From UHGV virus genome UHGV-0135785: 41,119 nucleotides of DNA. One strand, written 5' to 3'. Positions 27,001 through 30,000 of this stretch are shown piece by piece. Made by a program: the position numbers. The stretch comes from a virus. Within the stretch, counting starts at the first letter, position 1, and each line of letters starts with the position of its first letter.

Positions 27001-30000
27001 ACAGTTAGTCAACTTTGGTTATTTTGCCTTCTTTTTCTTGATGAACTTTGCATCCATCATCTTTTGATAGCCAAACTAAAAACTTTAAAACCTTAAACAC
27101 AAGTACGGATACTGTAATGAAAGCACCAATTGCAATTATTGCTAGTGAAATTATTTGCATTGGTGCTTTTAATGCAGGGAAAATAGCGTAAATGATCGCG
27201 AAAACAGTAATTATGAGGAACCATCGCTTCACACCAACCTCCTTAGTTTTGAGCAGGATACCATGAAAAAAGTTAACATTGGAAACGTACCAAAGATGCT
27301 CGTTCCGCTCTTTGAGAGCGGTACAATTGTGTTTTGTAGAGACTTTCCAGAATGGCAACGCCTGCATCAAAAACTTGGTGTGGACGTGCAGGACTCGGAT
27401 GCCAACGGAGCGTCTCATACAATGAGCAGCGAGAATGGTGTTTTGCATGTGATAGGCGTGTTCAATGGCAAACTATCTACTATTGCCCATGAGTGCGCTC
27501 ACATGGCATTCGATATCTGCTCAAGGGTCGGTGTTGATGTTGAACCAGGAAGAGCCAATGAGACTTACTGCTACTTAATGAGCAGGCTTGTTGAGTTCTG
27601 CGAGCGACATATCAAAAAGCCGGAGTGACCCGGCTTGATTATTACTTTTTGCTGTCTGGAGTTCGCTTATCCAATACCCAGCCATGACCTGGCTTTGTTG
27701 TTGGCGGAAGCCTTTCGTTGTCCTTGACGGTGGCAAAATTGTCTTTCTTACCGCCGCGTGGGCCAACTTCTTGGTATATTCCGCCGTTTTTTCCTGTGTT
27801 TTCACCTGGTTTTTTCGCCATGATATACCTCAACATACACCCGTTATTGGGCGATTAAATATTGATCTCATTTTATGAGTAGTCAATATGGTCCAAAAAA
27901 GGCAAAAATTAACCCACCGTCAGGTGGGTTTTTTGTTGTCATCACCAAGATATTTCTGCTTATATTCCTCTGAAAGAGGAATTGATCTTTCAACCATGCT
28001 AATAAGTTTATCTACTTGTTTTTTCTGTTTTTCTATGATTTCTAAAAGTTGAGGTATAAGTTTTTCATGCTCGATTTTATCATATTTTCTGTTTATCGCA
28101 TCTAGTTGTTCTTTAAACTGCTGAACGATAGGACCATCCTCCGGCCCAAAATCACGACAAACACGAATCGCCAACTCAAGCAGAGTGACAATCTCAGCAT
28201 TCATAGAACGATTATTTTGTTTTGATGACGCTTCAATTATTTTTTTTAATTCAACAGGAAGCCTAATCCGAAGTTGAGGGTCTTCTCTACTCATACCATT
28301 AGTCCAAACAGGAAAAATTCACAATAAGTAAATTATGCCCCACGGTGGGGTTGACTTCAATGACGCACGGTGTGACAATTTCAATTGCCCCACAGTGGGG
28401 CTATTTAAGGAGTGGAGATGGAAAAAGCAAAAGACATGTATCAACGCAAGGTTCGTTTCCCAGAGGATGTAAGGAAGGCGATTGAAAGAAATGGAGAAAA
28501 AGAGTGTCGACAGTTCAACACGGAACTTATTTATCAATTGAGAAAAGTGTACGGACTGATTGGAGAGAAGAATGCTAGGACATAAAAATAGTGAAGCCCG
28601 GCAGTGCGCGAACACAAACCGGGCCTCTATGTCAGTAACCGTATGCAAGGAAACTAACATGAATATTGTAGCAAAATCAGATTACAACTTCCACGGAGTT
28701 GAGTTGGTGCCCACCCGTGATATGCATGGTGTTTGGTTTACATCATCTAATATTGCATCTGCACTTAAATACGCAAATAGTCGTGCAGTAACAATGATTT
28801 ATAACAAGTATAGCGATGAGTTTAGCGCCGGAATGACTCAGGTACTCGAAGTGAGTACCTCAGGAAATTATCGCAAAAAAGTGCGAGTTTTCTCACTACG
28901 CGGTGCCCACCTAATCGCGATGTTTGCTCGCACTCCGGTAGCCAAAGAGTTCCGCCGCTGGGTGCTGGATATTTTGGATCGGCAGGCAGAATGCTCACCG
29001 ATTGCAAAACAGTTTACTGACGAAGAACTGGTTAATCTCTGCTACTTACAATTGTGGATGGAGAAGAGTCAACAAATGTGCAAACACATCTACCCAGGAA
29101 TGAAGCAAATTTGTTCTGAGCTTTCAGGAAGGATTTACGATATCGCATATGAGACTCGCTATATGTCAGAAGAAACCAAGAAATCACTTCTTCGTGAAAT
29201 GAAGAATCTTGATACCAACAATTTTGTCGTAAAGAACGCTCAGCCAATGCTGGCAAAACTGCGCGGCGAGGAATGGATTCATTGATTGGTGCGCCGGACG
29301 GCGCAAAAAGAAAACCGCCAGTGTGCTGCTGGCGGCCTATGTCACACCCTTACTACCACATAAGGAATGCCTAATGACTTTTAAGAATGTAGCAAACATC
29401 GGATCCGTTGTCACGGATAAAACCATTGACAGCCAGCGCCTGCTTGAGATGGTAAATCAGGCTCGTAGACAGTGCGGTGAGCCGGAGGTTCGTAATAACA
29501 AATTCATCGAGAAAATTGAAGATGAATTGGATGGAGAGCACTACACAAAAAGTGTAGTGCAAAAAGCGAACAAAACTTCGATGGTTATCATTGAGATGTC
29601 AATCAAGCAAGCATTGCGAGTTGCCGCTCGCGAGTCAAAAGCCGTTCGCCGCTCACTGGTAGACCAACTTGAAAGTATGCAAGAAGCGCACATTAAAAGC
29701 GGTAAATCAGCGAGTGGACTTGTTGAGTATCGTCAAGCGCGAACATTGAAAATGACGGTTGAAGCTGTTACCAATCTGTTCGATCTGATGCCAAATCTTG
29801 CGCCTGAGGCAAAGCAGACAGCGGCAGCAAGTATAATCAACCCGCTTGTTGGTTTTAATGCAATACCTCTTCCGGCAATAGAAGAGCATTACTACTCAGC
29901 AGGGGAGGTTGCAGAGCAGCTTGGAGTAACGGCCAACAAGATTGGTCGCATTGCTAACGCAAACAACCTCAAAACTGAGCAGTACGGGAAGTTCTTCCTG

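What the first reader, a model, noticed from the sequence alone, without database searches (positions are those of the whole stretch)
27005..27836. Three small AT-rich cargo ORFs between the ejection genes and immI
Downstream of the gp16-like gene, where P22 has sieA, there are three small ORFs: a two-TM membrane protein on the minus strand, a divergent 121-aa protein with an HECAH motif, and a convergent YjzC-like 59-aa protein. The membrane and HExxH genes are separated by only 29 bp, so their promoters must lie inside coding sequence or one call is wrong. The combination of a protease-like motif, a membrane protein and a stress-family protein next to the antirepressor module is uncharacterised.
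Basis: partly seen in the sequence, partly recalled or inferred. Interest (0 to 1): 0.6.

Follow-up and report, generated by a model that had tools for sequence, protein, structure and literature searches.

The report
P22 "ant moron" small accessory genes
The three small genes are real, but they are the already-described, functionally untested left arm of the accessory region that P22-like phages carry between their DNA-ejection genes and their antirepressor module; the modest additions here are that one gene looks like a miniature zinc protease and another sits in a slot where many unrelated membrane-protein genes are swapped.

Summary
All three ORFs exist as described and behave as genes. 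ORF-A is 27005-27232 (minus strand, 75 aa, two TM segments). ORF-B is 27263-27628 (plus strand, 121 aa, HECAH). ORF-C is 27642-27821 (minus strand, 59 aa).

The combination is not new. Window 27230-27936 is 98% identical to phage P22 itself. ORF-B is HK620 hkcC (100% aa), which is present but unannotated in the P22 RefSeq. ORF-C is P22 orf59a (HK620 "HkcD"). Villafane et al. 2008 described this region as the "ant moron". Only ORF-A replaces sieA, and only ORF-A is AT-rich.

What this analysis adds:
- hkcC belongs to a large phage family (phrog_1365) in which only H76, E77, H80 and E100 are invariant. This is a mini-gluzincin signature. It is not ImmA/IrrE and not a proper SprT member.
- hkcC reads in the sense of the late operon, so it needs no promoter of its own.
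- orf59a is a YjzC-family mini beta-protein with its own conserved promoter. It forms a convergent pair with hkcC that also occurs in siphovirus prophages.
- The sieA slot keeps one 5'UTR, SD and GTG in front of at least 11 unrelated envelope-protein cassettes.

All functions remain inferred.

The parts
24885..27008 (+). Gene 16-like ejection protein (707 aa). It is the last late-operon gene before the accessory region, and its stop codon overlaps the ORF-A stop by 4 nt.
   Evidence: ORF list. The same 707-aa type is linked to ORF-A in every locus examined, with a -4 overlap.
27005..27232 (-). ORF-A: a 75-aa predicted two-TM inner-membrane hairpin with a charged C-terminal tail. It occupies the sieA/hkcB cassette slot and is AT-rich (33.8% GC).
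   Evidence: phrog_7294 (unknown function) at E = 3e-48; no Pfam, NCBIfam or significant PADLOC match. PGAP CDS in E. coli 55989. 21 homologue clusters of 78-99% identity, with names only from E. coli and Salmonella. No similarity to SieA.
27233..27262 (-). Conserved 30-bp leader of the slot gene. It contains the SD GGAGG (27242-27238) and a possible extended -10, TGgTATCCT (27263-27255).
   Evidence: Identical junction in the window, P22, ST160 and E. coli 55989, and in about 50 IMG/VR loci. The extended -10 is my own reading of the sequence and is untested.
27263..27293 (-). Position equivalent to the P22-annotated PsieA promoter, inside the first 31 nt of ORF-B.
   Evidence: P22 records AF527608 and NC_002371. 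In P22, 85 bp upstream of sieA plus the gene suffice for exclusion (PMC10883804). Only one variable site (27286) in 48 haplotypes.
27263..27628 (+). ORF-B = hkcC: a 121-aa soluble mini-gluzincin-like protein (HECAH 76-80, E100). It is co-oriented with the late operon.
27617..27636 (.). Bidirectional hairpin terminator shared by ORF-B and ORF-C (HK620 'tORF59A'; P22 't mnt'). Its stem encodes the KPE C-terminus of ORF-B.
   Evidence: (-12.1 and -12.6 kcal/mol). The stem is conserved in the Xenorhabdus and Rosenbergiella modules.
27642..27821 (-). ORF-C = orf59a / HkcD: a 59-aa basic YjzC-family mini beta-protein.
   Evidence: and 106 (AF2 pLDDT 86, three strands).
27858..27886 (-). Promoter-like element TTGACT-17-AATATT upstream of ORF-C.
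   Evidence: Found at the same distance (35-40 nt) from the ORF-C start in the window, Klebsiella, Rosenbergiella and Xenorhabdus modules. The -35 TTGA and the -10 core are invariant in a six-lineage alignment.
27911..27930 (.). Hairpin with T-runs on both strands at the 3' end of the mnt-like gene. The right-hand end of the block shared with P22 is at 27936.
   Evidence: -14.7 and -14.8 kcal/mol.
27920..28294 (-). mnt-like Arc/RHH repressor gene (124 aa; a different allele from P22 mnt). This is where immI proper begins.
   Evidence: Pfam Arc at E = 3e-7; PGAP 'Arc family DNA-binding protein'.

Best explanation
The interval is the left arm of the 'ant moron', the accessory region that P22-like phages carry between gene 16 and the tailspike gene. 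It holds three separate genes with three different expression logics. It is not one system.

(1) ORF-A
- It is a small two-TM inner-membrane protein in the exchangeable sieA/hkcB slot.
- It is fused to the same 5'UTR, SD and GTG start that drive sieA in P22, so it is most likely made from the prophage.
- By position and by analogy with SieA it most likely alters the envelope to exclude incoming phage DNA. This function is inferred, not shown.

(2) ORF-B (hkcC)
- It is a soluble protein of about 120 aa with the catalytic signature and predicted topology of a minimal gluzincin zinc metallopeptidase.
- It has no recognisable promoter and reads with the late operon. It is therefore most likely translated from the antiterminated late transcript during lytic growth, and opposed by antisense transcription in the lysogen.
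- Its substrate is unknown.

(3) ORF-C (orf59a)
- It is an autonomous moron with its own conserved sigma-70-like promoter. It shares a bidirectional terminator with hkcC.
- It encodes a folded, basic YjzC-family mini-protein that is probably made in the lysogen.

hkcC and orf59a travel together as a convergent pair, which hints at opposed or coupled roles but does not prove them.
For: Identity and architecture
- Window 27230-27936 is 98% identical to P22.
- hkcC, tORF59A and HkcD are annotated in HK620.

All three are genes
- PGAP calls all three.
- Substitution patterns support ORF-B and ORF-C as coding.
- ORF-A has strong SDs in two independent upstream contexts.

The slot
- The junction falls at the start codon in the window, P22 and ST160.
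- At least 11 unrelated cassettes follow the same leader. On reading their N-termini, all have a TM segment, a signal peptide or a lipobox.
- In P22, sieA with 85 bp of upstream DNA suffices for exclusion.

hkcC
- 551 representative clusters match at E < 1e-3.
- Only H76, E77, H80 and E100 are invariant in 82 sequences.
- E100 lies 20 residues after H80, at the start of the helix following the HExxH helix, in an AF2 model with pLDDT 83 and pTM 0.80.
- BFVD neighbours include proteins named SprT-like, PolyVal metallopeptidase and Metalloprotease.
- It is co-oriented with late genes in every lambdoid or P22-like context examined.
- No promoter-like site was found on the + strand directly upstream of it in four contexts; the nearest + strand consensus match in the window lies about 240 nt upstream, inside the variable ORF-A cassette.

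orf59a
- Its promoter is conserved in six lineages.
- It has 110 homologues, and the distant ones carry PF14168.
- AF2 gives pLDDT 86.

The pair
- ORF-B and a convergent ORF-C occur together in Klebsiella, Rosenbergiella, Xenorhabdus, Proteus, Pasteurellaceae and Morganella prophages of different virion types.
Against: - No expression data were examined here. PsieA is only 'putative' in the literature, and the consensus scan did not find it.
- ORF-A shows dN/dS of about 1 and has no similarity to any known exclusion protein.
- ORF-B and ORF-C each also occur without the other.
Confidence: 0.6

Rival explanations
1. hkcC and orf59a are a functional pair. Orf59a is a prophage-state factor, and HkcC is the lytic-phase metallopeptidase that cleaves or neutralises it, or is inhibited by it. 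Convergent transcription would make their expression mutually exclusive.
For: - The convergent pair with its shared hairpin has been kept through divergence to 46-63% (ORF-B) and 64-80% (ORF-C) identity. It has moved between P22-like ant morons, siphovirus tail-gene clusters and an early region.
- The two genes have opposite expression signals.
Against: - ORF-B occurs alone in L093 and in the whole Orf-129 group between the lysis and terminase genes.
- ORF-C occurs alone in S. bongori and in environmental contigs.
- No interaction was tested.
Confidence: 0.25
2. hkcC is an ImmA/IrrE-type anti-repressor protease that cleaves a phage repressor (Mnt, Arc or C2) and so belongs functionally to immI.
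For: - It lies next to mnt-arc-ant in P22-like, Proteus and Morganella prophages, and next to Rha- or Ant-like genes in Klebsiella and Xenorhabdus.
- It has HExxH plus a Glu ligand, as ImmA/IrrE does (that feature of ImmA/IrrE is from my own knowledge).
Against: - No PF06114/M78 hit for the protein or for 82 relatives.
- BFVD 'IrrE' matches have probability 0.16-0.44.
- HK620 keeps hkcC although its immI is reduced to remnants.
- Orf-129-type and N4-like relatives have no repressor neighbour.
Confidence: 0.1
3. The ORF-A locus works mainly, or additionally, as RNA. The leftward prophage transcript runs on, antisense, into the 3' end of gene 16 and excludes phages carrying the same gene 16 allele, like the asRNA STnc6030 of BTP1.
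For: - ORF-A has dN/dS of about 1.2, and its last 33 codons are invariant at the DNA level.
- No convincing terminator follows ORF-A. The first terminator-like site lies about 200 nt inside gene 16 and is no better than chance.
- ORF-A is linked to one gene 16 type in every locus examined.
- STnc6030 arises at the equivalent position, and its active end is antisense to the injection gene (PMC7067206).
Against: - Strong SDs at correct spacing occur in two unrelated upstream contexts.
- The ORF is intact in the 8 distinct DNA alleles recovered from 14 loci.
- Amino-acid changes are conservative and confined to the TM segments.
- Every other cassette in the slot also encodes an envelope-type protein.
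Confidence: 0.15
4. The three ORFs form one three-component defence or exclusion system made of a membrane protein, a protease and a small protein.
For: They are adjacent, and the region next door encodes known exclusion and immunity functions.
Against: - ORF-A is one of at least 11 cassettes found beside an invariant hkcC-orf59a block.
- Its commoner context (mnt, then 92 aa, then 186 aa, then ORF-A) lacks both partners.
- There are no significant PADLOC hits.
Confidence: 0.04
5. One of the overlapping or close gene calls is spurious. For example, ORF-B might be a chance ORF over the PsieA and t-mnt regulatory DNA.
For: ORF-B is not annotated in the P22 reference records, and PsieA and t-mnt bracket it exactly.
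Against: - 23:3 synonymous to non-synonymous polymorphism in its frame.
- Saturated dS with dN of 0.15-0.34.
- A family of 551 clusters with an invariant catalytic tetrad.
- A confident fold prediction.
- The first P22 sequence, AF217253, matches at only 72% here, which suggests sequencing errors hid the ORF.
Confidence: 0.02

Closest known systems
The 'ant moron' of P22-like phages (HK620 hkcB-hkcC-HkcD; P22 sieA-hkcC-orf59a-mnt-arc-ant), as described by Villafane et al. 2008 (PMC2629481)
   Same: - Same position between gene 16 and gene 9.
- hkcC is 100% identical in protein to HK620 and P22.
- orf59a is 98% identical.
- Same bidirectional terminator, with an Arc/Mnt-Ant module to the right.
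   Different: The slot gene is a 75-aa two-TM protein (phrog_7294) rather than SieA or HkcB. The mnt, arc and ant alleles differ from those of P22.
P22 SieA, the inner-membrane superinfection-exclusion protein (Leavitt et al. 2024, PMC10883804)
   Same: Same genomic slot, same leader, SD and GTG, the same putative promoter region, and a predicted inner-membrane location.
   Different: No sequence similarity. It has 75 aa against 164, and two predicted TM segments; SieA is a longer multi-TM protein. Its exclusion activity is untested.
Minimal zincins: the mini-zincin Acel_2062 (PDB 3e11) and the 'mini-Glu-zincin' discussed in Trame et al. 2014 (PMC3890501)
   Same: A single-domain protein of about 110-120 aa consisting of little more than a beta-sheet, the HExxH helix and a following helix. 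The third ligand is Glu, as in Glu-zincins.
SprT-like (PF10263) and PolyVal metallopeptidase domains of phages and plasmids
   Same: Small HExxH domains on mobile elements. BFVD structural neighbours carry these names, with TM-scores of 0.55-0.65.
   Different: The window protein has no Pfam hit, and only 2 of 82 relatives reach E = 1e-4. There is no invariant third His; an invariant Glu takes that place.
YjzC family (PF14168)
   Same: About 60 aa with the conserved G-x-Y-Q-E-V-G-P-R-G-G ... L-P-P-T core. Distant homologues are Pfam members, and UniRef names several close ones 'YjzC family protein'.
   Different: The window protein scores below the gathering threshold (19.4 against 25 bits). 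It belongs to a phage-borne subfamily with its own promoter. No function is known for the family.
BTP1 STnc6030, a prophage antisense RNA that excludes superinfecting phage (Owen et al. 2020, PMC7067206)
   Same: A leftward, prophage-expressed transcript that starts between the injection gene and the tailspike gene and runs antisense into the 3' end of the gene 16 homologue. The ORF-A transcript lacks an obvious terminator before gene 16.
   Different: STnc6030 has no ORF longer than 60 aa. ORF-A is a well-formed 75-codon ORF with an SD.

Membership tests
Gluzincin-type zinc metallopeptidase (for ORF-B) | An HExxH motif that is conserved across the family | tested here: met
   H76, E77 and H80 are invariant in 82 sequences of 23-74% identity and lie in the predicted helix 74-88.
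Gluzincin-type zinc metallopeptidase (for ORF-B) | A third zinc ligand, Glu, on a helix downstream of the HExxH helix | tested here: met
   E100 is invariant. It lies 20 residues after H80 at the N-terminus of the predicted helix 100-116. Its spatial proximity to H76 and H80 could not be measured because no coordinates were available.
Gluzincin-type zinc metallopeptidase (for ORF-B) | Structural similarity to solved zincin catalytic domains | tested here: inconclusive
Gluzincin-type zinc metallopeptidase (for ORF-B) | Zinc binding and peptidase activity | not testable with these tools
   Needs purified protein.
ImmA/IrrE (peptidase M78, PF06114) (for ORF-B) | Sequence or structure membership, and a cognate HTH repressor gene next door | tested here: not met
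   No Pfam hit for the protein or for 82 relatives. BFVD 'IrrE' matches have probability 0.44 or less. Neighbours vary, and many family members have no repressor neighbour.
SprT-like (PF10263) (for ORF-B) | A Pfam match above threshold and a His as third ligand | tested here: not met
   No hit for the window protein. Two of 82 relatives reach E = 1e-4. There is no invariant third His.
YjzC (PF14168) (for ORF-C) | A Pfam score above the gathering threshold | tested here: not met
   19.4 bits against a cut-off of 25, E = 1.3e-3.
YjzC (PF14168) (for ORF-C) | Homology to bona fide members, with the same length and core motif | tested here: met
   Homologues of 42-51% identity to ORF-C in the alignment carry PF14168. 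The GPRGG and LPPT core is shared.
SieA superinfection-exclusion proteins (for ORF-A) | Sequence homology to SieA types A, B or C, including the FxRYPxEAxxFNK motif | tested here: not met
   BLASTP against P22 SieA gives E = 2.3. The motif is absent from the 75-aa sequence (the motif is from PMC10883804). Types B and C were not compared directly.
SieA superinfection-exclusion proteins (for ORF-A) | Position between gene 16 and gene 9 in a P22-like prophage, under PsieA | tested here: met
   Same junction, leader and start codon as P22 sieA.
SieA superinfection-exclusion proteins (for ORF-A) | Blocks DNA injection by P22-like phages | not testable with these tools
   Needs plating and potassium-efflux assays.
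Moron (an independently expressed gene inserted in a late operon) (for ORF-C) | Its own promoter and terminator, and antisense orientation or independence from the operon | tested here: met
   A promoter-like TTGACT-17-AATATT is conserved in six lineages. The hairpin terminator has T-runs. These are consensus and conservation evidence only; the transcript was not observed.

The most novel reading that the evidence does not exclude
HkcC-type mini-gluzincins (phrog_1365) are active phage proteases made in lytic growth, and P22, the best-studied phage of this group, carries an overlooked one. In the hkcC-orf59a module the protease would remove or counteract the prophage-expressed YjzC-like protein, or a host factor. 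That would give a portable, protease-based reset between the lysogenic and lytic states. Beside it, the conserved PsieA-SD-GTG junction would act as a docking site into which many different envelope proteins, candidate exclusion factors including ORF-A, are swapped.
Probability: 0.2. Interest if true: 0.6.

Novelty: new member of a known kind. Interest (0 to 1): 0.3.

Why it matters
P22 and HK620 are reference phages, yet hkcC is missing from the P22 RefSeq annotation, and hkcC, orf59a and most slot genes have no known function.

- If HkcC is an active zinc peptidase, a family of several hundred sequence clusters of small phage proteins gains a biochemical handle. That family includes Orf-129 of ST64T and L, and genes of N4-like phages.
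- The fixed promoter, SD and start-codon junction gives a simple way to harvest candidate superinfection-exclusion or envelope-modifying genes from prophages.
- For the window itself the result is mostly clarifying. The locus is an ordinary variant of a known hypervariable region.

Tried and rejected
Searches that gave nothing useful
- Pfam, NCBIfam and PADLOC gave nothing significant for ORF-A or ORF-B.
- PHROGs gave only 'unknown function' families.
- Foldseek against the PDB gave no match.
- The afdb50 library was unavailable.
- The profile search against PDB sequences gave only E of about 0.5.
- Longer family members were scanned for fused domains and none was found; they only have charged low-complexity tails.
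- The search for related loci with the wide alignment A5 failed because it has no conserved stretch. With the single distant members P0058 and P0100 it found nothing.
- Literature searches for hkcC, YjzC and phage HExxH anti-defence proteins gave nothing functional.

Ideas considered and dropped
- ORF-B is not pid, the P22 ORFan moron. pid lies between orf25 and orf80.
- ORF-A is not a truncated SieA.
- The 186-aa protein upstream of ORF-A in its commoner context is not SieA type B. It is a coiled-coil protein with a C-terminal TM segment.
- The long 147-aa reading of the minus-strand ORF (27005-27448) was rejected in favour of the GTG at 27232, based on the SD, the junction and the PGAP call.
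- ORF-A as a holin was considered because of its two TM segments and charged tail. It was rejected because of its orientation against the late operon and its prophage-type leader. The ORFs at 10884-12101 look like a lysis cassette by size and position only; they were not checked against any family.
- No second copy of ORF-B or ORF-C exists in the window.
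Full report
**What is there**

The window is a complete P22-like (Lederbergvirus-type) genome. Its late operon runs on the + strand through a 707-aa gene 16-like ejection gene (24885-27008) and resumes at the tailspike gene (30519-33464). The interval in question contains three ORFs.

- ORF-A is 27005-27232 on the minus strand and encodes 75 aa. Its GTG start at 27232 is preceded by GGAGG five nucleotides upstream.
- ORF-B is 27263-27628 on the plus strand and encodes 121 aa, with HECAH at residues 76-80.
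- ORF-C is 27642-27821 on the minus strand and encodes 59 aa.

NCBI's pipeline calls the same three CDS in the near-identical prophage of E. coli 55989. The gap between ORF-A and ORF-B is 30 bp. Only ORF-A is AT-rich, at 33.8% GC. ORF-B is 46.4% and ORF-C 47.8%, like the window as a whole at 46.1%.

**Are they genes?**

ORF-B and ORF-C clearly are.

- Among 48 haplotypes of the conserved block, ORF-B has 23 synonymous and 3 non-synonymous variable sites in its own frame. ORF-C has 14 and 3.
- One antisense frame over ORF-B scores similarly (22:4). By my codon-phase arithmetic that frame shares its third codon positions with ORF-B and is not open over any ORF listed. It is therefore not a competing reading.
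- Against homologues of 60-77% identity, synonymous sites are saturated while dN is 0.12-0.34.

ORF-A is less clear.

- It has 7 synonymous and 14 non-synonymous sites, and dN/dS of about 1.2 against the other common allele. All changes fall in codons 1-42, and the last 33 codons are invariant at the DNA level.
- In its favour, it has strong SDs at the right spacing in two unrelated upstream contexts. The frame is intact in the 8 distinct DNA alleles recovered from 14 loci. Substitutions are conservative and confined to the hydrophobic segments.

**It is a known locus**

Window 27230-27936 is 98% identical to P22 itself and to many relatives. In P22 this block lies between sieA and mnt.

- The P22 records annotate orf59a, which is ORF-C.
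- The same records annotate a PsieA promoter at the position equivalent to 27263-27293.
- They also annotate a terminator 't mnt' at the position equivalent to about 27614-27636.
- They annotate no gene where ORF-B lies. The ORF is nevertheless intact there, and tblastn shows 100% identity.
- The first P22 sequence, AF217253, matches at only 72%, which suggests sequencing errors once hid the ORF.

HK620 annotates the same gene as hkcC. It also annotates the hairpin as the bidirectional terminator tORF59A, the 59-aa ORF as possible 'HkcD', and a slot gene hkcB.

Villafane et al. 2008 named the whole gene 16 to gene 9 region the 'ant moron'. [quoted passage not shown] They counted ten types in sixteen genomes. 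They also noted that PLate transcription passes through the region into the tailspike gene (PMC2629481).

**ORF-A and the slot**

Similarity to P22 and ST160 begins exactly at the start codon of the slot gene. I surveyed 80 IMG/VR loci that carry hkcC.

- The same leader, GGAGGTTGG(T/C)(G/A)TG, precedes ten unrelated genes, and an eleventh (the lipoprotein gene) joins the shared sequence within the SD region with its own ATG, making at least 11 cassettes.
- These cassettes are SieA (164 aa), ORF-A (75 aa), a lipoprotein with an LAGC lipobox (161 aa), and proteins of 129, 109 (two types), 62, 68 (YobH-like), 99, 149 and 106 aa.
- Reading their N-termini, every one has a TM segment, a signal peptide or a lipobox.
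- Several share codons 2-4 (AAG CGA TGG or TT) before diverging.

ORF-A has no similarity to SieA. Its named homologues are only from E. coli and Salmonella. In every locus examined it is joined to one gene 16 type by a 4-nt stop-codon overlap. In its commoner context it is the last gene of a leftward operon (mnt, then 92 aa, then a 186-aa coiled-coil protein with a C-terminal TM, then ORF-A). There it has its own SD and ATG, and neither hkcC nor orf59a is present.

In P22, sieA with only 85 bp of upstream DNA gives full exclusion (PMC10883804). That 85 bp is conserved here, with one mismatch in the aligned stretch.

My inference is that ORF-A is expressed from the prophage like sieA and acts at the inner membrane, most plausibly in superinfection exclusion. 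This is inferred from position and topology only.

A rival or complementary reading treats the locus as RNA. No convincing terminator follows ORF-A. Its transcript should therefore run antisense into gene 16, as does the exclusion RNA STnc6030 of BTP1 (PMC7067206).

**The promoter puzzle**

Both gene calls stand. The annotated PsieA sits in the first 31 nt of hkcC. I also read a possible extended -10, TGgTATCCT, at 27263-27255 within the gap; this is untested.

hkcC has no promoter-like site on the + strand directly upstream of it in four independent contexts; the nearest consensus match in the window lies about 240 nt upstream, inside the variable ORF-A cassette. It is co-oriented with the late or structural genes in every lambdoid or P22-like context examined. 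It is therefore most simply translated from the antiterminated late transcript.

**ORF-B (hkcC)**

- A profile search found 551 representative clusters at E < 1e-3, nearly all 100-140 aa.
- In 82 members of 23-74% identity, the only invariant columns are H76, E77, H80 and E100.
- The AF2 model (pLDDT 83, pTM 0.80) has strands at 11-13, 21-25, 52-56 and 59-65, a helix at 28-37, the HExxH helix at 74-88, and a helix at 100-116 that begins with E100. This is the order of elements of a minimal Glu-zincin.
- Among predicted viral structures it matches many uncharacterised phage proteins with TM-scores up to 0.78. A few are labelled SprT-like, PolyVal metallopeptidase or Metalloprotease, and 'IrrE' labels appear only at low probability.
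- No Pfam family covers it, and 2 of 82 relatives touch SprT-like at E = 1e-4. All 82 fall in phrog_1365, which has unknown function.
- Relatives include Orf-129 of ST64T, L and epsilon34 between the lysis and terminase genes, mEp021 gp49, and a gene next to the terminase-proximal end of the N4-like phage phCDa.

I conclude that it is a soluble mini-gluzincin-like metallopeptidase of unknown substrate. It is not an ImmA/IrrE member and not a proper SprT member.

**ORF-C (orf59a)**

- It is basic and 59 aa long. AF2 predicts a confident small three-stranded beta fold (pLDDT 86).
- It has 110 homologue clusters. The distant ones carry PF14168 (YjzC), although the window protein itself scores below threshold.
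- A TTGACT-17-AATATT element lies 35-40 nt upstream of the start in the window and in the Klebsiella, Rosenbergiella and Xenorhabdus modules. Its core is invariant in a six-lineage alignment.
- Together with the hairpin, this makes ORF-C a classical moron.

**The pair**

hkcC and a convergent orf59a occur together, with the same hairpin, in several settings.

- P22-like prophages, including Morganella.
- Siphovirus tail-gene clusters just before the tape-measure gene, in Klebsiella, Rosenbergiella and Xenorhabdus.
- A Proteus prophage that also carries mnt-arc-ant.
- The early region of a Pasteurellaceae prophage.

Each gene also occurs alone. Functional coupling is therefore possible but not required. 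I put it at about 25%.

**Verdict**

This is a new variant of the known ant moron. One member (ORF-A) belongs to a hypervariable envelope-protein slot, and the other two are conserved genes already named in HK620 and P22. The useful additions are the catalytic-site and family assignment of hkcC, the autonomous promoter of orf59a, the portability of the hkcC-orf59a pair, and the fixed junction of the slot. All functional statements remain inferences. Public strand-specific P22 RNA-seq (PRJNA737196) could settle the expression questions quickly.

Noticed in passing
P22 NC_002371 13861-14226 (equivalent to window 27263-27628): hkcC is intact in P22 (100% aa by tblastn) but has no CDS in the RefSeq, BK000583 or AF527608 records. 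The original AF217253 sequence matches at only 72%, so early sequencing errors probably hid it. One record (KR296688) labels it 'GNAT family acetyltransferase', which nothing here supports.
   Followed up: partly
L010-L089 (IMG/VR loci), immediately upstream of hkcC; window 27233-27243: At least 11 unrelated cassettes follow the same 5'UTR, SD and GTG. All encode TM, signal-peptide or lipoprotein products, and several share codons 2-4 (AAG CGA TGG/TT). One locus type (L032/L035) has the SD-containing decamer duplicated. The commonest cassette (a 161-aa lipoprotein) brings its own ATG and joins the shared sequence within the SD region.
   Followed up: partly
L005-L009, 2875-4228: The commoner context of ORF-A is a leftward operon: mnt (82 aa), a 92-aa protein, a 125/186-aa coiled-coil protein with a C-terminal TM segment (phrog_5820; weak CCDC90-like Pfam hit), then ORF-A with its own SD and ATG. 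All are of unknown function.
   Followed up: partly
window 26784-27004 (minus strand): There is no convincing terminator after ORF-A. Its transcript should extend antisense into the 3' end of gene 16, at the position where BTP1's exclusion RNA STnc6030 acts. The last 33 codons of ORF-A are invariant in DNA among alleles that otherwise differ by 6-7%.
   Followed up: partly
window 27822-27857 and the equivalent leaders in L090, L092, L094-L096: A conserved CAATA(A/T)CG element lies between the -10 of the orf59a promoter and the SD. It repeats the CAATAT of the -10 about 15 nt downstream. It could be an operator or an alternative -10.
   Followed up: no
window 27616-27628: The conserved C-terminus K-P-E of HkcC is encoded by the stem of the bidirectional terminator. 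Its conservation may therefore reflect the RNA hairpin rather than the protein.
   Followed up: no
ST160, SE1, UAB_Phi20 and others ('places in record' = 2); ST64T 23069-23458: Some P22-like phages carry two members of the family: hkcC in the ant moron, and a paralogue of about 38-40% identity (Orf-129) between the lysis genes and the small terminase gene. The window has only hkcC.
   Followed up: partly
L093 3964-4885: In one P22-like prophage with a 77%-identical hkcC, the slot holds an hkcB-type gene plus a 178-aa ClpP-family protease gene on the minus strand, and orf59a is absent.
   Followed up: no
window 28560-29285 and 29323-30102: Two consecutive plus-strand ORFs follow the arc-like gene. 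The first is a P22AR C-terminal-domain antirepressor in the E. coli 55989 annotation. The second (259 aa) is annotated only as hypothetical.
   Followed up: no
L110 (Pseudomonas phage phCDa) 2965-3327: In this N4-like phage the hkcC-family gene is the first gene of a rightward block of small genes that diverges from the terminase block. This placement is typical of early genes, so the family is not restricted to late expression or to temperate phages.
   Followed up: no
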